Assembly: GCF_018977255.1 (NCBI RefSeq)
Contig: NW_024704742.1
Span: 119,042,001 to 119,106,000, forward strand
Direction of reading: 5' to 3'
Origin: Callorhinchus milii
Lineage: Eukaryota
DNA length: 64,000 nucleotides
How positions within the stretch are numbered: the stretch's first letter is position 1; each line of letters begins with the position of its first letter. The notes under the pieces were generated by a model. The model did not search any database and was not told where the DNA came from. It saw only the letters and a program-made list of their open reading frames with translations. Shown one piece after another: positions 123-57,739 of this stretch. Position numbers and translations under genes: made by a program.

Positions 123-3100
123 CTAAAAAGATGGTTTTTCTGCATCAGTTCAGTCAACTTCAGCTGAATATGGACAATTTAGATGTGATGAAAGCATTGA
201 CAATTACAGTAGTTGGACATACTCCTGATGCGAAAGGCACTATACAAATGTAATCTTGCTGTTGTTGTAGTTACTATGTTATTCTGTAAAGCCTGAAATC
301 AAACCTTTAATGGAGACAATAAACATTAGAATGAAAAAATCCTGCAAGATCCTGGAATGATATTACGCACTAGTTTAGGCCAAGCCTTCACTGACATTAC
401 TCAATGACATTATGTCCGCTGCAACTATAGGAAATGACTTACATCTGTAACTTTGGCAGCTCTTCGCAGAAAATGCAGTGGAATTGGCCGACAAAGAGAA
501 AAGTTTAGCCTTTTCAAAATCTCCTCTCCATCTCTCGTACCTGGACACCAGTGTAAGAATTGTCAGTAACAAAGACAAAGTCCCCAATTTCTGGAGGATA
601 CATTTCTTCATATTTGGAAGCCACCAACATTGCTGTAACACCAACAAGCTGTAGTCTCTTTGCAGTTACTAGATTGTTCTGTTTGGTGATAGAGGGGTGG
701 CAGAAGAAAAAAAAGCAAGAATTCATGTTTTGCAAAGTTAGTATTTCCATTAAAATGCACAGCAGTTTTTTTAAAAAAGTAAATGGCTTAACAAGTAGGG
801 AAGATAGATTTCTGACTACATCATCCCAGAAATATCAGGTTATAATGAACTATAGATTTAGCCTTTGTAAACTCTGACAAAGGGTTGTGGACCCGAAACA
901 TTCACTCACTTTGTTTTCTCCATAGATGCTGCCTGACCTGCTGAGTGTTCCCAGCGACTTCTGTTTTTAGCCTTTGAAAATCTTCATTTTCATGGATTTG
1001 GGGGAAAGAGGTTGAAAGCCAAATACTCATAAATGGTCTTTACCTGAAGAAATTGGTCCAAAATAGATACAGTCAAGTACATGGTTTCTTGAAGTAGTTT
1101 AAATTTTATCTGAACTTGCACAAGCCAGTCAATCAGGATAGCACGCATCCCTCCAGTTATCCTTTGTCCTGCCAAGTAGTGGTGTCTCACTGCCTGTTCA
1201 GTCTGCACTCAAAAAGAACAGGGTCATCAGATGATTCACTGCCATCAATCACCTCAATATACATAATGAAAGTTCAAATATTGTTTCATAGAAGATGTTG
1301 CAAAAGGGGGGAGGGAGTTACAACAAAACTTCTCAAATGTTTGGCTGAAATTCAAAATTAATTTAAGGAAAGAAAGAATTAGATAGATTTGCAACATCAA
1401 GTCTAGCACTACACTAAGAAGGAATTGTACCATTTAAGAGCAGGGAGTTTTGGTCAATATCTTCGATATTTGCCTGCCTTAGGTAAGCAACTCAATAATT
1501 CTAGTTTTTTTTCAGATTGATCCTTGAAGTCCCCTAAACAAGTCAAGTAGGCATATTGCTCTGAGGAAAACATAACTGACCAGAAGAGACATAGCAAATT
1601 AGGAAAACAAAATCAGAAGAACTTTCAGTCAATTAAGCCCCATTTAATTTGGGAGAATTTAATCCTAATGTCCCACCCTTTCACCATACTCTTTAATACC
1701 TCTACTGTCCAAGCAAGTATGTCTTTTAAGCATCCTTATAAATTCTCTCTGCACTTCTTTGGCTAGCCTAAACATTGGCACATTGGTCACCGCACACATT
1801 GGTGCTCCAACTTAGTTGTCTATTGCCCATCATGTAGTTTACCTACAGTATAATGAAGACTGACCTCAAGTTGTCTTAAGTAACTGTAGATGTCTTTTAT
1901 ATATTCACTGCACAGAAATGGGTTGTTGCCATCATTGATATCGACATCTTCAATAGGTAGCATTGCATCTGAAAAAGCCTGACATAACACTTCAGACACG
2001 TCAACTGAAGTTTCCATTTGGGATGGCAACATTTGCTATAATGAAGTTTAGAAATAAGATACAGTATGTAAGAAAACAAGCAGATTTACAGGACTGCAAG
2101 TCATATTTCAATACATGAAAAGCTAATCACAAGCAAACAGGTTCATACTCCTTTGCTCTATACAACTGTAGATAACCATTCTCTAGGTCTCAAACACATC
2201 TTTTCTTTGTATAATCTCCCGCTATTGCCTTCTTTTGTCTTGCACCATCAACACCTCTGATCTCGTCATCTTCTGTTCTCCACCTAAATGTTTCCTTTGT
2301 CTTTCTTTCCCTGTCCCCTTCGCTGCTTGTCCTAATAATCTGTTCCCTTCCAACATCTGATGGAAGGTCATAGACCTGAAACGTTAATTCATTTTCCTCT
2401 CTCCATAGATGCTGCGTGTTCCCAGTGACCTCTAGTTTAAACAATGATTTGGTGCAATGATTTGCCATCTTGTCCTACTCAACAATCTCCCAGGTAAAAC
2501 AACCAGTTATTGGCTGTTTGTGGGACTGCAAATGGAGTCTTCACTGCAACTGTAATACAACTGAAATCAATGCTTATAACAAAGCACTGTAGTTGCGATC
2601 CTCAGATGAAGGTTTGAGAAGTCCATACTTGGGATGCTCACAGGAAAATCCTTAGGAGCACTTAAAAAAAAAACTTTTTTTTTGAATGTTCCAAACCAGC
2701 TTTTAATATTTTTTGCAATATGCCATTTGAAACATTTTGCACAAGCAAGTCTGTTGCAGAACGTCTATACAATGGCTGTTGACTATCCAGTGAATAACTT
2801 ATTATTGGACCCAGCCAGATCTTTCATGATCTTAAGTTTTACCTCTGGAATCAAAGATTAGCTTAGTGGACAGGGACAATGTTCACATCGAAAAAAATAT
2901 GAAACTTGCAGCACCTACTTCAAATCCCAAGAATAAAAAGCTTTAAGGATAGCAGTTCATCAGTGTTTCGCAGAAAATTACTTAAAGTGTGGTGACTATT
3001 TCTAGGTAAACATTTGTACCAGGAGAGCCCAACATGTGTTATGACAAAGAGCCCCCAATTTGGAGAATTAATGAGCCCAATAATGCACCATTAAGAATCT

Positions 3101-8426: not shown

Positions 8427-11400
8427 CTGAAAGGAAAGAGCAAAATCTTGAAGTTAGTATTGATATCAAAGAATTCTGACAAACGCCAATAGTGGTTTAA
8501 CAAGAGCCTCAAAATCAGTCATATGGATCACATCCTTCAAGTTTTGTATTGAGGTAGAAACAATATTTGTCCAATGAGTGATGACAGCAGATGTACATTT
8601 TAGTCAATTCCTCTAGACAGGGTTAGGGTGAAGCTTTGCTTTCACCATCACAGGTCAGTTATCACACCTCCCCCCCACCCATGGGGTCTATTGTAGACAA
8701 CAGCATAAGAGTATTTGGTTAGACTGTCAATGTTTTGAGATAACTCTGGGGCAAATTCTTGAGACAAGTAAACAGAGCTGCAGGTAGGGCTCAAAAAAAA
8801 AAGGAATGGAGAAAAAGGGCAGCCCCTCAACCTAAGAGATCCATACAAGGGCAATGAAACATTGCAAAATACAGATGGGAAGTCATTTGATGATTGGTTG
8901 AACCTCAAGCATTGGCATGATGAATTACGTCTTCAGTGCCAGAATCTGTACTTTATTGGAAAAGTGAATATTATACAGATTATAATTTGCAGAACAGGTT
9001 CTGACCACATAAGTACAAGTATCCCACCAAGCTACTCAAATTTGTAAAAATGCAACATTTCAGATTTCTAGTATAGGATAGTGCCCTAACCTGGTTAGAA
9101 AACCATTTACTTAAGATACTTTGCCAGTCAACCTACTAACTTGTGTATTAACTTACCACATGCTTAGTGAGCCCCTGGTTGACCTTCACAATATTCTTGG
9201 CCATATGCTGCATCACTGAAACCAGTTCATCCTCTTTATATGCCATGTAATGCTGCAGCACATCATTCTGAAAGAAATCAAACTGGTCAGTGCACAACCC
9301 AGAATTTCCTACGAAATAATTTCCAGAGAACCACAGCTCAAGTTTGGCATAAACATTCTCATACTTACCCAGTCGCCACTGTTTAACACTTTCTGAGCAA
9401 GGCAGAACGCAGCAGCAGCAATCTTGGATGGAGGATAATGCACCATCTCATAGTCCACTATGGTCAGCTCCATCAGGTATTTGGCAAGGGTGTGTTGTTC
9501 AGAGCTTACCTAGGGCAAGAGGCAATATTCAGTCAGCTAATTGATTAACATTACAATATACCTCCCTTTCCACTTGGAAGGAAATGTGTCATGTTCTCCC
9601 TGGAACAGCTCCTTGAAGACTCATTTGCACAACATGGGCATGAAGTAGTTTTGCAATCAACTGATATTTTAGAATTAATACAACTTCCACATGTCAGTCC
9701 TGTAGATAAGTCTATTGCTGCCTAAAAGTTGTGGTATTTATTTGAATCCAAGGCATAGGTGCTTAAAAAAATCTCTGGTGCAACTTAGAATTGATGGTGC
9801 CTTAGGATTTAAGACAATACAATCCTTTCCCCAACTGCACACAAGGTGGGGGCACCTTAAGATAACTATGCTACCCCCTGCCTCTGCAAGCTCTTTCACT
9901 CTGAGCCAACTACTCACTCACTTTGTTCAACAAGTACTGCTCTGCTTCATCCCCCTCTGGAATTTCATCCTCAATTCTCTCCACTCTTTCAAGACAGTCT
10001 TAGAGGTATATTTTTTGGCCAAACTGTTATCTATCCCCTCCTCATAGGTGCCTGTCCACCACTGAACGGCTTAAGTCCTTCCAACATGAAGGGTGCTATG
10101 CAAATTGTAATGTACGTCAAACATCATTTCAGTGAAGCTAATTTATAGTTGAAAGAAGAAAAATACTTCAGCTATCTTTGAAGATCTTCTCAGAAAGTGC
10201 AGAGGGAGGGGCCGACCAAGAGAAAAATCAAGCTCCCGCAGAATCCTCCTCTCCATCTCGCGAATCTGAGTACTGGTGTAGGTGCTGTCAGTGACAAAGG
10301 CAAAGTCCTCAATTTCTGGCGGATACATCTCCTCATATTTGGAAGCCACCAGCATTGCAGTAACACCAACAAGTTGTAGAATCTTCTTTGTTACTACATT
10401 ATCCTGCAAAAGACAGAAGCTCATTACCGGTGAATCTTTTGCTTTGGGAGCCAGTGGGTACAATTCCAAATCATACCCCGTCTGCTGTCTACATGCAGCC
10501 AAGAGATAATGTAAATTAAGATGCAATGTAAGGTTTCGACAGGCTAGACAAGGAAAAGCTGTTTCCGCTGGTAGGTGTGTCTGTGACCCGTGGTCACAGC
10601 CTTAAGATATCTACTAAAAGAAGCAGAGGGGAGGTTAGAAGAAATTTTTTCACTCAGCGAGTTGTTCAAATTTGGAATGATCTGCCTGAAAGGGTAGTGA
10701 AGTCCGATTCGATAACAGCTTTTAAGAGAGAACTGGATAGGTATCTGGGGAAGACGGGTTTGCAGGGTTATGGGGAGAAAGCTGGTGATTGGGGTTAGTG
10801 AAAGTGACTTGCTCTGTCAAAGAGCCGGCACAGACTCGATGCGCCGAATGGCCTCCTTCTGTGCCGTAACATTCTATGAATAAGACCGCAACAGCAACTT
10901 GAGCTGGAGCGCTGTACTTTACTTGGGCCTTAATTAGGGCAACCATTAAGATCAAAATGTTTGCATTTGACTGAATACTGGGGAACAACCCCATTACAAC
11001 TCAATTGTGGATGAAGTTTCAGGAATCATAAATAGGCATGAGTGGTGGTTAACAGGTTACTACAGGGCTAATACACATGGCACGCAGAAGTGATGCTAAT
11101 GCAACTTTATAAAGATTAGGTCAGTAGCTCTTCCCACATAGAACAATAGTAAACTGATGAACTGGAAGTCAGTCACGTTTCCATGATTGGATTTGTCAGA
11201 GCTCTCAACCAACATTTGTTCAGCAAGCCAAGCCTTTGAAAAAAGGCTTCCTTTAAATAACTATTAGGAAAATGTTCCATGAATTGATTCACAAGGTGTC
11301 TTAGACACACATCTAATTAACTGAAGCCGAAATACCTTGTTTAGAAGGGGATTTAAAGTGTGCCAACTTCTAGCTGGAATCTTAAGTCACAAGTAAGGGG

Positions 11401-14400
11401 TAATAGGCAGCAAGAAAACTTAATTCTTACCTACTTTCACAGGGTAATTCAGAAAGCATGGTGTAGTTCATTTCTGAAAGGAGTCTTAAGCTGGATCTCA
11501 AGTCCTTAAGCTGTCTGATTTCTGCAATATTAAATCCCACTAAACAAAACTTAACATTAATTATGGAACTACAGGAATTAGTTACGCAAACTACCCCAAA
11601 TTCTTACCTGAAGGTATCGATCTATGATTGCCACAGTTAGGTACATGGTTTCCTGAAGCAGCCTGAATTTCATCTGAACCTGAACAAGCCAGTCAATTAG
11701 GATAGCTCGCATATTCCCAGTTATTTCCTTTCCCTCCAAGTACTTTGGTCTCACTGGCTGCTCTGCCTGCATTGAGAAAGTATAAAGCACAACAGGTTAT
11801 TAATACTGCCAAAAAGGTGTTAAACTTCAATGCAGAAACAGCTTAGGTCAAATTGTCTTGCTTCAGAGAGTCGGGATTGTGGGTTCAAGACCACGACAAG
11901 ATGCTGATCTCAGTCAAAGGCTGACACATCAGCCTGTCTGCCTATTACTAGTGAAGCACTGCATTGTTAGAGGGGCAGTCTTTCAGACAGACAACTGAGG
12001 CTCTTTCTGCTATTTCAAATGAATGTTAAATAATAAAGCTTGCATTTGATATAGCGCTTTTCACATCTTCAACATCTCAAAGCGCTTCACAGAATATACT
12101 GTAAAGTGAATTGACTACATTTGTGAGCGAAACCCAGCAGCCAATTGCACACAGCTAAAGATCCCATGACACTATTAAAAAAATGTTCCGCTGGTGTCCT
12201 GGCAAACAATCTCCCAGATAAGTGATCATTAACTTCAGATGCTTGGGGAACATTGATTGCCATGTTTGCCTTCAAAACGAAGTCACCACAATTCCCTGTA
12301 AAATGACACGCTTTTGGACATCATCTCAACAAGAAAGGTGCTGTATCAAATGCCTACCCAACTACCTAATCTCAGTCTAAATGGTACAAGTTAAGAGGGC
12401 AAAGTTTAGATTTAAGTTCACCACTGATGTTACTTCCTGCACATTGCATTCAAGAAATACGATCACCTATTATCTAACATCAAGCACCTCCTATACACGT
12501 CAGCAGAAACCCGACAACTCAAAGCTGACCATTGCCCCCCCCCAACAATAATAGGATTTGTTCGACGTCTGTTTTTCAGGTAAGGAAAATCAGCATCCAT
12601 AACCTAGTTACAAGCAAACCCTTATGTGATTGCCCTCCAGCTTAAGACATTGAATAGATAGCCATCTGCTATCGTAGCTGGGCACAGAACTTAAGGGTAA
12701 ATATAATCATTTTGATTCCATGTGGAAGTATTGTGTTATGGTCCTTTGACAGTATTCTGATCAAGGCAGTGCAACCTAGATGTCCAATTTGAGAAAAATG
12801 CATACAGGTGTATGAATTTGCCCACCGAGTCACCATCTGCCATAAAGTGCACTATACAAAGTGGCTCACTCATAGATTATGACTCTATACTCTACATGAA
12901 CTAAACCAGATGACAATCACTTGGAGCCAATGTCCTACCCAGGAATTGGGGACAACCTTCAATGGATTGCAGATGCAGCATAGTAAACGTACCTCAAGTT
13001 GTCGCAAGTATTTGTAAATGTCTTTGACATATTCACTGCACAGCATAGGATTGTCACCATCATCTTCATCAACGTCTTTAACAGGCAGCAGCACCTCTGA
13101 GAAAGCCTGGCACAGATCATCAGGTATACATCCTGAGGTTTCCATCAGGGTTGGAGAAGCAGGAACTTGCAACTAAAAAGCAAAGTTTAGTATAAATGTA
13201 GGTGCACTTAAACCAATTCTAAAGTTACAAGAAAAGGTAAATTAGTTACCTAGTGATGCACATTGATCCAAAAGAGAATTTAGGAGGAACTACTTCATAC
13301 AGATTGTGGAACTCGCTGACTGAAGCAATGGTTGAATCAGATAGTATAAAGGTATTTAAGAGGTAGCCAGACCCTCACACGAAAGGGAGGGAAATAGAAG
13401 GTTGTGTGGGGGAGGAAGTAAGGAAGGGTTGGAGACTCAAAGACTGGATGATCAAGTGGCCTGTCTCTGTACATCGTTTAAACCGAGTATCTTGCAAGAG
13501 GAGCACAAGCGGAGCATGCTTTGCACCAGAAGGATGGCAAAGCAGGCAAACTTATCAGTCAGCTGAATCCATTCAGTCAGGAACACAAGAGTCAACCTCT
13601 CATAAGGAAACCAACACTATTAGAAATGTGGCTGTACAGTGAGTATGTAGTTACTGTTCTTCATGGGTACACCCAAGGAGCAAGTATGCAACCTGAAACT
13701 GTAGAGATCTTCCAAGTTTAGACATTCACCTTGCTGTGTAAAAAGCTTACCGTTAACACATCTTCTGGTTGGACAACTGGTTTGCAAGGTTTCACTTGTT
13801 CCACCTTAGGAGCAGGCACATTTTTCTCCTATATTGTAGAAAAGTTTTCAAAGATTAACCAGCTGTACATAATCATGAAAAGAATTCTACTCATCTCAAC
13901 CACCACCAGAACTCCACACAGAAGGAAACACTTGGGTACATATTGCTGCTAGTTGCTGAAACGCAAGCACACCAATTTGAAACCGTCAACCCAAAATGGA
14001 CCCAATTTTAAAGTGAAATGCAGTGAGAAATAGTTGGACAAGGCTGTGAACAGCTTTTTTAAAAAAAAAGTGAATATAATGAGCATACACATCACTGCAC
14101 ATTGACAGGGAAACCTAAACCACATGATTTTCCAGGCACAGCCACCACTGCATAGGTGGAGAATTCAAATGTTTGAGACCATTGATAGCTAAATGGTTGC
14201 CCATTCACCAACCATTTTTCTCTCAAATCATAGAGTCACCTTCTTAACTACTATGCATGCTTAAAAAAAGTGTAGTAAAAATAAAACTAAATCTTAATAA
14301 AGCTGCAAATGACCCATTAATAATAATAAATAATAATCCTTGCATTTGATAGCACTTTTCACGTCTTCTAGATGTCCTAAAGCGCTTCACAGAATATACT

Positions 14401-17400
14401 GTAATGTGAATTAACTGTATATTTGTGGGCAAACGCGGCAGCCAATTGCGCACAGCAATGTCCCACAAATAGTCATAGATTGAAAATGACCAATTTATTA
14501 TTGTTTTTGGTTTTAGAGGGATTATTATTAGGAGTGTGGAGTAAGGAAACTTGCCCAAGGTTTGGCCCTGCCTGGAATTGAACTCAGGTCTCTCACTTGC
14601 AAAGCGAGTGCTCTAACCACTGAGCTACAGGACTTCTACAATTATACCTTTTTCAAAGGTACCTTGGCTCCTACTACTTTCCCTCGTGCCTTGTTTCCGA
14701 TGTCCCCCAAGGCAGGTCTTGGTCTTAGGCGAGGTTTTGTTCCAGCTTTAGCCGCTGGCAGGTGTGTCGGTTCAACATTGTTGACAGCAACTCGGGTAGT
14801 CTGCAAGACAAAGAACACAAGTTATTGTAGAGAAATGTGGTTAGTACATAGAGTGCTAGTTAATATTTACTGAATAAAAATCCACAATATACTTAACATT
14901 ACACACGTTAGAAAATGTGACCAGGAGGCAGAATTTTGAAGGTGGGGTGGAGGAAAAAAAGGAAAGGACACTGAAAGTTGACAAGTTCTTTGAAGGCAGA
15001 GACTCTGGAGTAATATCTTTAATTTAACAAGTTAAAATAATTGGGTTGTAATTAACATTACTTTTATTTGTAGTATTCTTAACACAGCAAATAGCTATAC
15101 AACCCTGATCTCGGAATGATGAAGAGAATCCCACATTAAAGGCATATTATTATGTCCACAAAACTTAAGTGAATTTAAATCTTACCTCAAAAGGACAGAT
15201 CACACAAGCTGACTTGCATTACTCAACTGAATTAGTCTAAGCAAATTTGAAAATATACAAGCTTTAATTTTAATTCAACCTATATACAAATGCCATTGAT
15301 CACTCTCTCCCCAACGTAGAGGGAAGGAGATGTACTTGGGATGAAAATGTTTAACTAATTGCAACATGGTGTGAATGAAATTGCACTGGGCTCAAAATGC
15401 ACTGGGCAGAAAGTCAGCCTGAAATCCCAAGCAGTAATGACAAACCTTCACTTATAAGAATGTACTTATTCAACTGAAGCGTCTATACTATCTAGGGCAA
15501 GATTATACACAAGCACGCCTTGCCATCTCAGAATGTTAATTTAGTAAACGAGAACAAGACTCAAGTATCTGAGGCCAATTCATTTATTCTTGAATTTCAA
15601 TTACTGAAGACATGGCCCCTTTTGAAGCACTGAGAACAAGAGACCATTGAAACAAAGGGTGAATAACCAAGTCCCATTCTATTTGCTGAGGCTGTTTAAA
15701 GTTTGCACTTTAAAGTCAATCCACACTTTCATAATGGAAAATTTAACATAGGAACCACCAACACTCACTAAAAATAGCTGGAATAAGGAGTTCATTCACA
15801 TCAGGAATACCTTCAGTTTGGATAAATAGTTGATATCTTCTACAATGCTTCATTAATACGGCAAGTATCAAGTATTAATTAAGAGCCTGTTAACCCTGGG
15901 GTTGATAAAGCAACTTTTGACATAGACCTGACCATAAGGCTTCTCTTTTTTAAAAACATCTAAAGAGGGAGAAACTGATCATAATACAACAAGCCTTGCA
16001 TATGATACAGCAACTTATGTCATTGAAAGATCTCAAAGCACTTCACATGACCCACTATAAAGTGGATTGACTATTTTGTTCCTTGGTAAAAGAGGGGCAA
16101 TCGCTCATTACTCCTTAATCAAGATTCTCCATTCCCAAAGCACTCATTGCCGGGTTAGTTCAGAGGCACCTGCTCAGCCTTAACACTTAAGTTTGCATTC
16201 CTTGCTGCAGTACACTCCAACTGGTGTAGTAGCCTTCACCAAACTCCCAACATCTGCAAGGCAGCATTTCAGTTGTACCCAGATGACACGATTGCTACAG
16301 CTCCACAAGCGGGTCAAGTAACCCGCCAAACCAGTTAGCTTGTTTAAAGGAGTTGCTCAAATTAATCAATAATAAGCAACAGATGCATATAGCACCTTTC
16401 AGGTCAGAAGGAAGTCTCGAAGCACTTCACATAACTGACTGGGCACCCAAGTTCTTTTTGGGTGGCGGAAGAAGAGAAAAAGAGGTGAAATGAGTTAGAT
16501 TAGTGGATGGGAGAAGAAAATGACCCAGTCACTGAAAAGATGAGTGTAAAGATGGAGGAGGGGTGAAGTGACGACAGTGGGGACTCCAGACAGAGCTCTA
16601 GTGAGTAGGAGACATAATGGCTGAAGCTCATCCACCAATGGTGAGGCAGATCAGGCACTGCTGACAGAGCAGACGGACTGCAGGAGATTAGGACCAACAG
16701 AGGGAGTTGAATTCAAGGATATGAATTTTCAGTTAAATCCACTGGGGGATGGGGGGCAGTGAAGCCAAAGCAAATTGGTAAGAAGCAGTGAAATGTTCAC
16801 AGGGGCCACGACACCACATTTAGACCCACCCCGGATGAGTTAAGAGGAGAAGCGCTCTGCAACGCCGCCCCTGCCTTCGCCGCTTCCTCCCTTTCCTCCT
16901 TCAAGGCCGGTCTCAAAACCTTTCTCTTTGACCGTGCCTTCAGCTCCCCTCTCGACTCTCTACCCCCTCCTCACTCCCTCCCTTCCCTCCCCTCACCCTG
17001 ACCATTTCCCCCCTCCTCGCTCCCTCCCTTCCCTCACCCTGACCATTTCCCCCCTCCTCGCTCCCTCCCTTCCCTCCCTCACCCTGACCATTTCCCCCCT
17101 CCTTGCTCCCTCCCTTCCCTCACCCTGACCATTTCCCCCTCCTTGCTCCCTCCCTTCCTCACCCTGACCATTTCCCCCCTCCTCGCTCCCTCCCTTCCCT
17201 CCCCTCACCCCGACCATTTCCCCCCTCCTCGCTCCCTCCCTTCCCTCCCCTCACCCTGACCATTTCCCCCCTGCTCGGGTCATGACCCAACTGTGCAGCG
17301 CCTTGGGACGTCCTCCCGACGTGAAAGGCGCTTTATAAATGGAATCTTGTTGTTGTTGCTGCAATGAAGGGCACTATACAAAAGCACATTTACTCGAGTA

Positions 17401-18102
17401 AATACTACCAATGTACGGTGGGGGGTGAGGGGAGAAGAGCCCGAATGTACCGGTCACCCACGAAAACTGGGCAAATCCTGCTCCAGTTTAACTCGGTCAT
17501 GTGGATGGTGGACCTCGTTATTAACCAATAAAAGACCCAATTAAACCAATCGGATTAGTGCCACACGCTTATTAGTGCCTCACGCTTATTCAGCTTATTC
17601 AGCCAAAAGGTTTACCGTAAGCGCCTTTACTAAGATGGCGGACAGAGATGTGAAACCCCTTCTCTCGCTGGAGGTTTACACACACCGCTGGGATTTCGTT
17701 ACCACGACGAGGGGGTGAAGGCACCGAGTGCAGCCCCGCATTTGGGTGAGGGCAGTGGAGAGGCGCAAATGCATTTGGAAAAGCGACACCAGTTCAAACC
17801 CCTTTGTGCATCCCAACAATAACAAAAGGGAGACTTTCGGTTCAAACCCGAGCCCCGCACCCCCCCCCCACCCACCCGCCCCCCACCCAACAACGCCCCC
17901 CAATTACTTTAGCCCTTTCCGGGAATGAAAGCCGGGCAGCTCCTGGGCCCAGGGAGCCGATCTCCCATTAAGTGGGAGAACCCCGGGGCTCGGAGCTCCG
18001 CGCCTGGACCGTTACCCGCTGAGAGCCCTTCGATAATTATTATCAAATGCTGCGATTTTTTTTTTTAGAAAAAAAACTTACTTTTCTCAAACGAAGAGCC
18101 AT
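8316..18102 (-). CDS. CCNB1: G2/mitotic-specific cyclin B1, complete 9-exon gene, 396 aa
   Basis: Exons (minus): 18082-18102, 14648-14800, 13751-13828, 12993-13172, 11608-11766, 10167-10403, 9369-9509, 9157-9267, 8316-8426; total 1191 nt, all phase-0 GT-AG introns. Contains D-box [40 protein letters not shown] cyclin box, KYEEMYPPE and [10 protein letters not shown]. Immediately downstream of SLC30A5, the known vertebrate synteny. Confidence 0.96.
9157..9267 (-). CDS. CCNB1: CCNB1 coding exon 8
   Basis: [37 protein letters not shown]. Confidence 0.95.
9369..9509 (-). CDS. CCNB1: CCNB1 coding exon 7
   Basis: [47 protein letters not shown]. Confidence 0.96.
10167..10403 (-). CDS. CCNB1: CCNB1 coding exon 6
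   Basis: [30 protein letters not shown]...[16 protein letters not shown]; 237 nt. Confidence 0.96.
10530..10879 (+). mobile_element. CR1-clade LINE 3' fragment
   Basis: TRGHSLKI...[16 protein letters not shown]...GLQGYG; tail GGCCTCCTTCTGTGCCGTAACATTCTATGA. Confidence 0.9.
11608..11766 (-). CDS. CCNB1: CCNB1 coding exon 5
   Basis: [10 protein letters not shown]...[35 protein letters not shown]. Confidence 0.96.
12993..13172 (-). CDS. CCNB1: CCNB1 coding exon 4
   Basis: [27 protein letters not shown]...[17 protein letters not shown]. Confidence 0.93.
13751..13828 (-). CDS. CCNB1: CCNB1 coding exon 3
   Basis: [26 protein letters not shown]; tag|...|gtaagc; low-conservation linker. Confidence 0.8.
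14320..14635 (-). mobile_element. tRNA-derived Deu-domain SINE, full length
   Basis: A box TAGCTCAGTGG, B box GTTCAATTCC, Deu core GCTGTGCGCAATTGGCTGCCGCGTTT, L2-like tail, (ATT)n. Confidence 0.9.
14648..14800 (-). CDS. CCNB1: CCNB1 coding exon 2 (D-box)
   Basis: TTRVAVNN...[28 protein letters not shown]-box at 14693-14719. Confidence 0.9.
16855..17360 (+). mobile_element. L2 3' end with an internally expanded 39-46 bp tandem repeat
   Basis: Matches 53440-53670; CACCC(T/C)GACCATTTCCCC occurs 7 times in 16994-17272. Confidence 0.9.
18082..18102 (-). CDS. CCNB1: CCNB1 coding exon 1
   Basis: MALRLRK, 21 nt, donor gtaagt. Confidence 0.88.
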
Positions 18103-18246
18103 GACCGCGGCTGAGAGAGTATGATCTAAAATAACAGCTCAAAGTGTGTGTGTGTGTGTGTTTTTTTTTTCTCTCTTCTTCTGCCCCGGTCTCACTCCTC
18201 CTCTCTGTGCTGTGCCTCTCGGTCTGACCCTCACCGCAGCCGCACA

Positions 18247-18445
18247 TTTAAATTCCCCGCCGGGCCGAGCTCATTCGCTGCCGTTCCACGTTCCGCCTCC
18301 TCTGATTGGCTCGGCCCCCGAGCCGCGAGAATGCGTTGGCATGGCGACGGCCCGCGCTGACGTCACCGCCGCGTCGCCTTCGTTGGAGGGGATGTGGCTG
18401 AGGCTGAGTTTGAATCTTGGCGGGGGGTGGGGAGTGGGCGGGGCC
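18247..18445 (-). promoter_or_regulatory. CCNB1 G2/M promoter in a CpG island: CDE/CHR, CCAAT box, CRE, GC box
   Basis: Minus strand GGCGG-GGAA-TTTAAA (18247-18261); CCAAT at 18305-18309 plus a CGAAT variant 32 bp closer (18273-18277); TGACGTCA at 18358-18365; GGGCGGGG near 18436. Confidence 0.8.
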
Positions 18446-23605: not shown

Positions 23606-53950
<30,345 letters not shown>

Positions 53951-54072
53951 GGTTCGGGGGCGGGAGCCGCCTCAGCCCTCACCGCTGCTCATGGTCGGGG
54001 GGGAGGGAGGGAGGGAGGGAGAGGCCGGGAGGAGCCGCGCTTCACACACTCACACACACACACCGGCGGCTG

Positions 54073-54080
54073 ACACGTCA
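54073..54080 (-). promoter_or_regulatory. UPRE/XBP1-like site in the SLC30A5 CpG-rich 5' region
   Basis: TGACGTGT on the minus strand, about 125 nt upstream of the ATG. Confidence 0.5.
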
Positions 54081-54177
54081 AGTCAGGCGCCCGGACCTCG
54101 ATCCCGCCGTCACCCAGAGCGGAGCGGGGCCTGGAGGCGGCGGCGGGGACACAACACAGGCCTCACAGCAGAGCGGA

Positions 54178-54845
54178 GCTCCCCACACAGCGCCCCCCAC
54201 TGGCCACAACTCCCCACACAGCGCCCCCCACTGGCCACAACTCCCCACACAGCGCCCCCACTGGCCACAACTCCCCCACAGCGCCCCCCACTGGCCACAA
54301 CTCCCCCCACAGCGCCCCCACTGGCCACAACTCCCCACACAGCGCCCCCACATGGCCACAACTCCCCACACAGCGCCCCCCACTGGCCACAACTCCCCAC
54401 ACAGCGCCCCCCACTGGCCACAACTCCCCACACAGCGCCCCCCACTGGCCACAACTCCCCACACAGCGCCCCCCACTGGCCACAACTCCCCACACAGCGC
54501 CCCCACTGGCCACAACTCCCCACACAGCGCCCCCCACTGGCCACAACTCCCCACACAGCGCCCCCCACTGGCCACAACTCCCCACACAGCGCCCCCACTG
54601 GCCACAACTCCCCACACAGCGCCCCCCACTGGCCACAACTCCCACACAGCGCCCCCACTGGCCACAACTCCCCACAGCGCCCCCCACTGGCCACAACTGC
54701 CCACACAGCGCTCCCCCCCCCCAACTCCCCACACAGCGTCCCCCCACTGGCCACAACTCCCCCCACAGTGCCCCCCCAACTCCCCCACAGTGCCCCCCCC
54801 CCCCACTGGCCACAACTCCCCACACTACGCCCTCCACTGGCCATA
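54178..54845. repeat. 30-31 bp minisatellite, about 20-22 units, (CTCCCCACACAGCGCCCCCCACTGGCCACAA)n
   Basis: Direct tandem units read by eye; they differ mainly in C-run length and decay at the right end. Confidence 0.97.
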
Positions 54846-54869
54846 GTGCCCCCCGTACAGGCAGAGGGT

Positions 54870-55715
54870 GTAAGAGGGCGGCTGAGACACGGTCCAAAAG
54901 CAGGATCTTGAGTTCCAAAGAGTGGGGCAGAGAGGCTGAAAGCCCGGCCACCGATGGTAGGGCGGGAGACATGGAGCAGCCCGGAGACTGCTGAGCGGAG
55001 GGAGCGGAGAGGTTGATAGGGGGTCAGCAGGTCAGAGATGTAGGAGGGGGCAAAGCCGCGGAGGGCCTTGAATGTGAGGACGAGGATTTTGAATTCTACC
55101 CTCTGAGGGACGGGGAGCCAGTGGAGCTGGCGAGGGTGGGGGTGATGGGGTCACGGCGCCCGGTGCGGGAGAGGACGCGAGCTGCAGAGTTCTGGGTGAT
55201 CTTGTGGAGGGAAGAGTTGGGGAGGCCGAGAAGGAGGGAGTTTCTGTCGTCGAGCCTTGAGGTGAGGAATGCGCGATTGAGGGCTTTGATGGCCTGAGGG
55301 GTGAGGCAGTGACAGAGTCGGACAGTGTAGCGGAGGTGGGAGAGAAAGGGCAATTGAGGGTTGAGCAAGACGCCCGGGTTCCTGAGTGACTTGGTGAGGA
55401 GGAGTGTGAATCCGTGGATGCTGATGCTGCCGGTGCCTGAGGTGCGGAGGCGCTGACAGGAGCCAATCAGGAGAGCCTCAGTCTCGCTGACATTCAGCTG
55501 TAGAAAGTTGGCTCTCATCCAGGACTTGATGTCAGACAGACTGTCTGTCAGGACGTCAGTCGTCCTGGAATCGAGGGTGGAGACAGAGAGAGAGTTGGGT
55601 GTCATCCGTGTCCAGGTGGAAGTTGACCGGATGATATCACCAAGTGGGAGCGCGTAGAGGTTGAAGAGGAGGGGACCGAGACAGAGCCCTGAGGAACACC
55701 ACACGAGACTGTGCG
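54870..55715 (-). mobile_element. L2-clade LINE fragment
   Basis: LGPLLFNLYALPLGDII, WMRANFLQLNVSETEALL, QNSAARVL on the minus strand. Confidence 0.9.
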
Positions 55716-57739
55716 GGGCCTGGAAGAGACAACTTAATTTAGGCAGTACTGTTCATGAGGGTACTATCTCAGAGCACTTGACAGTGTTCCCCCCTTCTCC
55801 CCCCTTTATAAAGATAATGCTTACATTTGGTGCTGCTCCTTTCTCATCAGGACGCGTCTTAATGCGCTTCACAGCATTTACTGTAAAGTGTGGAGATTGG
55901 GTATTTTGTTGGTGAAATGCAGTCGCCAATTTGCGCAGAGCAATGTCTCACAAACACCTACAAATTGAATGGCCTATTTTATTTGGGAGATTGTTGGCTC
56001 GGACACCGAGAGAAACTCCATTCTCTAATTGAACAGTGTTATGAGATCTTTAACATCTACCTGAACTGGCAGACAGGCTCGGTTTGACATCTCATCCAAA
56101 AGATGGCACTTTGAATAATGCAGTTTGAACAAAACTGTTCTGGTTTAACTTGCCAGTCCCCAAATAAAAAAAAACACTCTTTCTTTCAAAGCCCAAATTC
56201 ACCAAATACAGTAGCTAGCTAATCCCCTCTTGAATTTGCTGTCACAATCTCCCTCCTTCCATTCACTGGGTGTATTCCACATATTCGTTGCTCTCTGTGT
56301 AATTATAGTCTGACCCTGTTATAGTGCCCCGTGGGTTCAGATATAGTGTGGGAACACAGTGGACCTGCACATTTGCTCACTCAAGCGCTCTGGGATGCTA
56401 TCCCGCATGAAGGGTGCTATATAAATGCAAGTGGTTGTTGTTGTTGACTTCAGCTCTAACTGGGCTCCAAAGCACAAAGGTTTCAACAGAGCCCCCAGCA
56501 AAGGCCAAAATGCTCAAGGTAGTCGATACTGCGCACCAGCCGGCTTTCTGTACATGACCTGTAGGTGCAGAGGGGCTCAATGACATCAACAGCATCAGCG
56601 GTGACCCTGACAGCCCTAGAAGTGCTTGCGAGTGACCACACTATAACGTGCTATTTTAAAACACGGGGTCTCATTTTATGGATCCAAATGGCAAATTACA
56701 ATGGAGTCAGACTGTATATCAAACTGTCTGTTCATCTTCCTTCTCCTGAGCTTGAGTCAGCGTCCTTGAGATTGTGACTGAAAACTGTATTCCTAGGGTT
56801 CAGTTTATCTACAGGATCTATTCTGGGATTTCCCATTATAAAGATATAATGAAAAGTTTGCTATTTTTAGCACTTAGCACACGATCGACTCTGAAGAGTT
56901 CAGAAAATGATGTGGTTATTGCACAGGACCCTTACTGTAGGACTATCAGTGTCTCAGAGCTATCTCCAGAATCAGCCTGGAAAAATCCATCACAGTGCAT
57001 TCAGTGGGCAGTATAAAATAAAACATATTCAAATATTTTCTTTCCACCCACGAGCTAGAAGTGCTGTTCTTGGCCGAGTTATGGATATACCCTCCCCCCG
57101 CTCGGCAAAACCACCGATGACAAACATGTATAACCATCGTTAAGGAAAATTATGCCCCTTGTCCTTTAGCTCAGAGAGAAAATGAGTCAAAAAGGTACAG
57201 TTAGATTTGAGTGGATGCGCAAATTTCTTCGAGGAGACTGATGCCCAAATGGATTATTGTGACATCTCTGACTTAAGTTATATAAAATAAGATTGATAGC
57301 TGTGATTGGGAATGTACAAGGATATTTCACTGCTTTGATCAGCGATAATCCACCAGAGCACGAAGGAACTGCACAGAGCCAGGTACAAGATAAAACATAA
57401 CACATGTTGCACTCTGCAACAGTATCTTGTCTCAGGATCTGCAAGAGACTTGTTTGCACAAAGTGAGATGCAATTTGTCCCATCCCCCAATTCCCCAAGT
57501 TTTCTTTCTCGTTCCCAGAAACAGTGAAAATAGAATCTCTAAGAACAGTGAACAGAAGACCAGACTGATTCAAACTATAGCATATTCTGAATGAGGTTCC
57601 AGTGCTGTGATATGAGGCTGTACTCAAGTAAAGTATTTTTTAAAAAATTCACTTTTAAATGTTTTCAACATGCAGTATGCTAAGTAAGACCTGCCATACG
57701 TATGCAGAAACGTGCAGTGTCAGCAGGTCTGAGGTGACA

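What the first reader, a model, noticed from the sequence alone, without database searches (positions are those of the whole stretch)
54178..54845. Promoter-proximal minisatellite whose unit is a CTCF-like motif: candidate tandem insulator array
Seen: each unit reads TGGCCAGTGGGGGGCGCTG on the minus strand; about 11 units have exactly this spacing and others have one G fewer. The last unit is TGGCCAGTGGAGGGCGTAG. All share one orientation, pointing into SLC30A5-CCNB1, and sit between the CpG-rich promoter and an upstream L2-dense block. CpGs are retained. Known: the CTCF core is CCASYAGRKGGCRS, and the unit differs only by A to G at position 6. Inference: amplification of one CTCF site into a ~20-copy directional boundary or cohesin barrier with VNTR-tunable strength, protecting a housekeeping/cell-cycle cluster.
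Basis: partly seen in the sequence, partly recalled or inferred. Interest (0 to 1): 0.72.

Follow-up and report, generated by a model that had tools for sequence, protein, structure and literature searches.

The report
CTCF-motif minisatellite at SLC30A5 promoter
A short DNA repeat pressed against the start of a zinc-transporter gene in the elephant shark carries eleven strong, same-direction matches to the binding site of the genome-folding protein CTCF; it most likely is an ordinary promoter CTCF site that was copied many times, a kind of repeat already known from mammals, and its role as an insulator is untested.

Summary
The array is real: 31 bp x about 22, 229 bp upstream of the SLC30A5 start codon in a Callorhinchus milii-type genome. 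Eleven of 20 motif-anchored units score 19.7 bits on a recalled CTCF matrix (p 1.3e-7); 2 of 100,000 shuffled units reach that. Five units lacking one G score -1.7, so it holds 11-15 sites, not 20. Two other samples carry the same perfect unit. The insulator reading is unsupported: L2 elements lie on both sides of the promoter, no strong convergent partner lies in the window, no binding or Hi-C data were found, and tandem non-boundary sites do not insulate. A spliced RNA contig reaches the first unit, so the sites sit at or just above the transcription start, pointing with the gene: the geometry of promoter CTCF that activates housekeeping genes. Best reading: a promoter CTCF site amplified by ordinary minisatellite growth. 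CTCF-motif tandem repeats are known (DXPas34, ICCE, human VNTRs). The scan noted a similar array upstream of XPA in this genome (unchecked). New member of a known kind; interest 0.37.

The parts
54179..54846 (.). 31-bp minisatellite, 22 units; 17 homogeneous units next to the gene (differences almost all in C-run length), 5 diverged units at the L2 end; C-rich on +, G-rich on -
54188..54693 (-). 11 identical CTCF-motif matches (19.7 bits) starting at 54188, 54219, 54279, 54371, 54402, 54433, 54464, 54525, 54556, 54617, 54675, same direction as SLC30A5; interleaved with 5 one-G-short units (-1.7 bits) and one 11.2-bit variant
   Evidence: first motif confirmed letter for letter in contigs of runs X1, X2, X3
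54735..54843 (-). three diverged distal motifs (8.5, 9.5, 13.5 bits); the last borders the L2
53951..54178 (-). unique 5' leader/core promoter of SLC30A5 (GC 0.70, CpG o/e 0.72 with exon 1); covered by a spliced RNA contig up to the first repeat unit
53880..53950 (-). SLC30A5 coding exon 1 ([24 protein letters not shown], identical to the start of C. milii zinc transporter 5)
   Evidence: splice to exon 2 seen in X3 and X9
47526..47557 (-). start of SLC30A5 exon 2, the piece joined to exon 1 in two contigs
54863..55730 (-). L2-type LINE fragment whose 3' end abuts the distal end of the array
51716..53670 (+). L2-type LINE in intron 1 (RVT_1 hit), the repeat flank on the gene side
53683..53824 (+). 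G-run block at the start of intron 1 (G4Hunter mean 2.87), opposite skew to the array

Best explanation
The SLC30A5 promoter carried one forward-oriented CTCF site just above its transcription start. That site was caught in a 31-bp unit and copied head to tail by ordinary minisatellite growth, with the units next to the gene homogenised most recently. CTCF probably binds some of the 11 intact motifs (zinc fingers 3-7 on the 15-bp core, weakened at one base). The one or two gene-proximal sites would then act as promoter CTCF does at mammalian housekeeping genes: keep the promoter open and help polymerase II load, while sites further up damp antisense transcription toward the neighbouring L2. 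The extra copies are mostly redundant; any loop-anchor effect is secondary. Shown: the array, the motif score, orientation, position, presence in other samples. Inferred: binding, origin from one site, activation, neutrality of the expansion.
For: Motif far above chance for a unit of this composition and absent from the window's other repeats. Unit and the G at core position 6 confirmed in other samples: X1 and X2 each hold a 61-bp closed-loop contig of the perfect unit with 0 differences. A contig of X3 joins exon 2 to exon 1 and runs to the end of the first unit, with no loop contig laid (1 record laid), so RNA reaches about 54,210; motif centres lie 13 bp inside and 18, 78, 170 up to 624 bp beyond that point. 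In mouse cells genes activated by CTCF have it a median of about 79 bp upstream, almost never in reverse-only orientation (2%), and are broadly expressed; sites further upstream repress antisense transcription (PMC12695661). The vertebrate motif is the same in lamprey, chicken and human and marks skate TAD borders, so a mammalian matrix applies. The CpG lies at the methylation-insensitive position. Neutral capture of real sites is 13 to 80 times likelier than a chance match in a rough estimate (0.17-0.50 against 0.006-0.013 expected arrays in 161 windows; assumed inputs).
Against: No binding data for this species were found. The changed base is the A seen in 93% of matrix sites (G 3.5%, cost 4.7 bits), the base read by zinc finger 6 triplet. 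No upstream motif for fingers 9-11 by inspection (recalled consensus) and no GAG at positions 19-21 for finger 1. The X3 contig has no strand and could join mRNA to antisense RNA or DNA, so the start site is not mapped; X9 stops at 53,989 at a simple repeat. 'Forward' in the mouse paper is assumed to mean the JASPAR direction; I did not see it defined. No orthologous single site could be looked for.
Confidence: 0.5

Rival explanations
1. One reading: the array is a directional boundary or loop anchor. Many same-direction sites stop cohesin coming from the SLC30A5-cyclin B side and shield the cluster from upstream enhancers or L2 chromatin, with strength set by copy number.
For: Insulation rises with the number of tandem boundary sites (model prediction); skate domains follow the CTCF orientation code; CTCF-rich tandem repeats anchor loops on the inactive X; a human VNTR's CTCF-site number tracks predicted folding change. 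CpG loss only in distal units fits a methylation edge.
Against: Non-boundary sites do not insulate even as 6 or 15 copies, gains shrink beyond two sites, and flanks matter; those tests used 139-bp units, and about 15 bp of flank counts, whereas here each motif has 12 bp to the next. L2 lies on both sides. No strong convergent site in 54 kb. The distal CpG signal is 2 units only.
Confidence: 0.2
2. An inert minisatellite: a decayed or chance CTCF-like word, not bound or bound without effect, multiplied because G-rich repeats grow next to CpG islands.
For: Mismatch at a highly conserved base; 5 units have lost the motif and were tolerated, if they are not assembly errors; the window holds other locus-specific repeats and earlier notes report many promoter-side minisatellites in this genome (unchecked); in voles the CTCF sites of DXPas34 vary widely and are absent in one species.
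Against: A pure chance match is unlikely (2 of 100,000); the score exceeds most matrix-drawn sites and score correlates with occupancy; the site lies in promoter DNA, where access is likely.
Confidence: 0.2
3. The array acts through something other than CTCF: G-quadruplex/i-motif formation or G-run-binding zinc-finger factors (EGR, SP/KLF, MAZ), or as part of a long 5' leader.
For: G4Hunter mean -1.46 over the array; the one-G-short unit is 1 mismatch of 9 from a recalled EGR consensus; RNA reaches the first unit; the insulin VNTR binds MAZ.
Against: Of 17 recalled consensus motifs only CTCF fits with 1 mismatch over 14 specified bases; the others are short or fit worse. One loop per unit is 13 nt, and a strict G3 N1-12 pattern matched only two short distal stretches. 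No loop contig from X3, so no sign that transcripts span several units.
Confidence: 0.1

Closest known systems
DXPas34 minisatellite beside the mouse Tsix promoter (PMC3149622, passages read)
   Same: Promoter-adjacent minisatellite with 30-34-bp monomers, CpG-bearing, described with one CTCF site per monomer; lineage-restricted; copy number differs between species.
   Different: DXPas34 has binding and deletion data and regulates X inactivation; here a housekeeping gene in a chimaera, match to the full genome-wide motif, nothing tested; no homology implied.
Forward-oriented promoter-proximal CTCF sites of housekeeping genes (PMC12695661, passages and section 16)
   Same: Same direction as the gene, at or just above the start, broadly needed gene.
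   Different: Those are single sites shown by depletion in mouse cells; here 11-15 copies over 650 bp, start site not mapped.
CTCF-bound human VNTRs and the HRNR repeat (PMC5007689; PMC10234305; passages)
   Same: Tandem repeats forming clustered CTCF motifs; 171 repeats, mostly simple VNTR-type, were bound by CTCF and BORIS in K562.
   Different: Binding or length-expression links measured there; neither measured here.
DXZ4, FIRRE, ICCE tandem repeats (PMC6125249, abstract and outline only)
   Same: High density of CTCF motifs in a tandem repeat.
   Different: Large repeats, inactive-X-specific binding, superloop anchors; this array is 0.67 kb and sits on a promoter.

Membership tests
CTCF binding site | Significant match to the core motif | tested here: met
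   19.7 bits, p 1.3e-7, relative score 0.94, for 11 units (recalled matrix); 2 of 100,000 shuffles
CTCF binding site | A at core position 6 (finger 6 triplet) | tested here: not met
   G in all motif units of the window (T-G variant in one) and in X1, X2, X3; 3.5% of matrix sites have G
CTCF binding site | Optional upstream (fingers 9-11) or downstream GAG (finger 1) extension | tested here: not met
   Positions 19-21 read TGG, not GAG; no upstream motif by eye against a recalled consensus. Optional, so not excluding
CTCF binding site | Occupancy in vitro or in vivo | not testable with these tools
   No run with a library description was listed; Kadota 2017 states no ChIP-seq for elephant shark at that date
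CTCF insulator / TAD boundary cluster | Several sites in tandem | tested here: met
   11 strong and 4 weaker of 20
CTCF insulator / TAD boundary cluster | Convergent partner site or divergent pair | tested here: inconclusive
   Best plus-strand hit below the array 12.3 bits; no plus-strand hit above 12.1 bits upstream; only 64 kb available, skate domains are about 800 kb
CTCF insulator / TAD boundary cluster | Insulation in Hi-C or enhancer blocking; cohesin accumulation | not testable with these tools
   No contact data on hand
Activating promoter-proximal CTCF site | Motif in the direction of transcription | tested here: met
   Motif and SLC30A5 both on the minus strand; 'forward' assumed to be the JASPAR direction
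Activating promoter-proximal CTCF site | Within about 200 bp upstream of the start site | tested here: inconclusive
   One spliced contig reaches 54,209; strand and true start unknown
Activating promoter-proximal CTCF site | Expression falls on CTCF loss or motif mutation | not testable with these tools
   Needs an experiment
Minisatellite | Head-to-tail 10-60-bp unit, present in other individuals | tested here: met
   TRF; closed-loop contigs in X1 and X2
VNTR | Copy number varies between alleles | tested here: inconclusive
   Loop-to-flank depth differs between X1 and X2, but contig depth is no copy number
L2-derived repeat | Unit homologous to an L2 segment | tested here: not met
   Best alignment to the rest of the window matched or beaten by 279 of 500 shuffles (unit) and 40 of 500 (terminal piece)

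The most novel reading that the evidence does not exclude
Two such arrays in 161 windows have a probability of only 1-9% under uniform neutral capture (rough), although promoter bias of both repeats and CTCF sites would raise it.
Probability: 0.15. Interest if true: 0.68.

Novelty: new member of a known kind. Interest (0 to 1): 0.37.

Why it matters
If bound, this is a natural, ultra-dense array (one site per three helical turns, 31/10.5 = 2.95) at an endogenous promoter, useful for asking whether CTCF dose at 31-bp spacing adds activation or insulation, and whether the activator role found in mouse cells reaches back to cartilaginous fish. Natural length alleles, if they exist, would make the dose question testable without engineering. 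As a single untested example of a class known in mammals it is of moderate interest; a genome-wide class in chimaeras would be more.

Tried and rejected
Whole-genome search for other copies or other CTCF arrays: no genome is held. Orthologous site in other species: all 24 listed runs carry one species label; earlier notes gave no look-alike stretch. No RNA holder is listed on record (no evidence either way); 10 of 24 runs held part of the stretch, 4 were laid. Copy number from contig depth: loop 5.47 against flanks 6.93 and 11.4 in X1, 30.3 against 9.25 and 12.4 in X2, where the window's array predicts 8.6-fold; the tool says depth is no copy number and G-run dropout would do the same, so it is not used as evidence. 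Whether the 5 one-G-short units are real: no such variant listed in X1 or X2 (3 records laid each), but contigs drop rare variants; all three covering runs have an extra CA at 54,050 against the window, so indel errors or alleles in simple tracts are plausible; unresolved. The uncovered stretch near 53,990-54,035 in X1 and X2 is a skipped simple repeat. L2 origin of the unit: looked suggestive by eye, not significant. Coding role: long open frames cross the array in several frames as expected for a G/C repeat; the ATG at 54,844 is in frame with SLC30A5 but stops after 244 codons. RNA family: none in the array. Zinc-related elements (MRE, ZTRE half-site; recalled): no exact match in the unit. 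Paper searches for this locus or CTCF repeats in chimaeras or sharks listed none; the library is limited and the shark CTCF ChIP study cited was not read. PMC8282625 and bioRxiv 2026.10.19.759930 added little.

Full report
WHAT IS THERE. Tandem Repeats Finder gives a 31-bp array at 54,179-54,843, 21.9 copies, 90% matches. Split into units it has 17 nearly identical copies next to the gene, differing almost only in C-run length, and 5 diverged copies at the far end. 20 of 22 units keep their CpG; two distal ones show TpG.

CONTEXT. A 94-residue exon is 99-100% identical to Callorhinchus milii zinc transporter 5 and 83-85% to shark and coelacanth proteins; the frame starting at 53,950 gives the first 24 residues of that protein. 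So this is SLC30A5 of the elephant shark or a very close relative, on the minus strand, and the array begins 229 bp above its ATG. Two cyclin B1-like genes follow. An L2-type LINE abuts the far end of the array from about 54,863; another fills intron 1 at 51.7-53.7 kb. The unique promoter and exon 1 are only about 350 bp, so the array is all the DNA between the leader and the upstream LINE, and LINEs lie on both sides.

IS THE MOTIF MORE THAN CHANCE? With the JASPAR MA0139.1 matrix (recalled, not fetched) the unit scores 19.7 of 26.1 bits, p 1.3e-7 on a uniform and 3.0e-6 on a 70% GC background, above 68% of sites drawn from the matrix; the one poor position is A to G at core position 6. Copies are not independent, so the test was made on one circular unit: 0 of 200,000 mononucleotide and 2 of 100,000 dinucleotide shuffles reach the score. 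Four other repeats of the window score at most 5.2. Outside the array the window has 14 hits at p<1e-4, about the 13 expected, the best 14.4 bits. The one-G-short units score -1.7: the array has 11 strong and 4 weaker sites, up to 16 strong if the short units are sequencing errors.

OTHER SAMPLES. Ten of 24 listed runs hold part of the region, all under one species label. Four were laid on 53,830-54,209, the unique promoter plus the first unit. X1 and X2 (one study) each give a promoter contig ending at the repeat and a 61-bp closed loop of the perfect unit with no differences, so the tandem unit and its G at position 6 are not assembly artefacts. X3 (another study) gives one 519-bp contig that joins exon 2 (found at 47,526) to exon 1 and runs to the end of the first unit; no loop contig was laid from it. 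X9 shows the same splice and stops at a simple repeat at 53,989. RNA therefore reaches about 54,210 in one sample; strand and true start are unknown, and antisense RNA or DNA could extend the contig.

MECHANISM. [quoted passage not shown] The unit has CpA at C2 and its only CpG at C12, so methylation need not block it, but it lacks the usual A in the finger-6 triplet and the finger-1 extension. The motif is the same in lamprey, chicken and human (PMC5504073, passages), C. milii has a CTCF orthologue (PMC7471279, passages) and skate domains follow the orientation code (PMC10115646, passages); matrix score correlates with occupancy (PMC3091324, passages). I put in-vivo binding at about 0.7 (inference). 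What the binding does depends on position. In mouse cells CTCF bound a median of about 79 bp above the start, in forward orientation, activates broadly expressed genes without cohesin, and sites further up block antisense transcription (PMC12695661, passages and section 16). Here the motifs point with the gene and their centres lie from 13 bp inside to 624 bp beyond the furthest RNA end. That is the best-supported model (0.5). The boundary model (0.2) gains from dose-dependent insulation by tandem sites, but the same study found that six or fifteen non-boundary sites did not insulate despite strong binding, that gains shrink beyond two, and that flanks decide (bioRxiv 2020.07.07.192526, passages; PMC11828424, passages). 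Nothing in the window marks this place as a boundary. An inert repeat (0.2) and non-CTCF effects such as quadruplexes (G4Hunter -1.46; 0.1) remain.

ORIGIN. The diverged terminal unit already holds the motif with the same G (13.5 bits), which fits amplification of one pre-existing site. A resemblance to an L2 segment did not survive shuffling (279 and 40 of 500). An earlier, unchecked note reports an 11-copy CTCF array upstream of XPA in this genome; two cases have a probability of 1-9% under uniform capture, which is the only support for a recurrent class, and other notes report many promoter-side repeats without CTCF motifs.

COMPARISON. Also close: 171 repeats, mostly VNTR-type, bound by CTCF and BORIS in K562 (PMC5007689, passages), the HRNR repeat (PMC10234305, passages) and DXZ4/ICCE (PMC6125249, abstract). 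PMC7087399 and PMC4333095 were seen only in search listings. Six searches listed no paper on this array or on CTCF minisatellites in chimaeras; the library is incomplete. No supplements or figures were read; the promoter motif logo of PMC12695661 (Fig. 4d) and the supplements of the two bioRxiv preprints could bear on how well G at position 6 is tolerated.

VERDICT. Observation confirmed with a lower site count; interpretation partly supported. A real CTCF-motif minisatellite at the SLC30A5 transcription start, most likely an amplified promoter site, new member of a known kind. Interest 0.37; the recurrent, selected copy-number-dial reading has probability 0.15 and would merit 0.68.

Noticed in passing
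window 375-2035 and 9148-18102 (minus): Two cyclin B1-like genes in tandem downstream of SLC30A5; matching exons hit Cyclin_N and human cyclin B1 (92 and 80 bits), so one copy looks more diverged. B1 against B2 was not resolved by a tree.
   Followed up: partly
window 16963-17277: 46-bp minisatellite (7 copies) built from an L2 3' tail in intron 1 of the first cyclin B gene; the same unit occurs unamplified at 53,518-53,602.
   Followed up: no
window 16865-17013 and 53429-53577: L2 3' ends 96% alike over 149 nt sit in intron 1, close to exon 1, of two neighbouring CpG-island genes: a young family, possibly favouring open promoters.
   Followed up: no
window 51716-53670 and 54863-55730: Both L2s flanking the SLC30A5 promoter keep CpG o/e 0.65-0.68, against 0.41 for the L2 at 58 kb and 0.35 for the gene body: young age or protection from methylation.
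   Followed up: partly
window 53683-53824: G-run block at the start of intron 1, strong quadruplex potential on the template strand; GC skew flips across the leader.
   Followed up: no
window 53972-53992 (minus): Six-codon upstream ORF in frame with the SLC30A5 ATG.
   Followed up: no
window 54050, 54082 and exon 2 near 47548: Differences between samples: extra CA at 54,050 in X1, X2, X3; G to T at 54,082 in X2, next to a CRE-like word (label recalled); one-letter difference in exon 2 between X3 and X9.
   Followed up: no
window 14563-14634, 32892-32963, 33622-33693, 34322-34393, 46440-46511: Five tRNA-family hits; two lie inside a 287-nt dispersed repeat 91% alike, so probably tRNA-derived SINE heads.
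   Followed up: no
window 18240-18440 (minus): Cyclin B promoter shows GC box, CRE-like and CCAAT words by eye (labels recalled) and no CTCF motif (0.5 bits).
   Followed up: no
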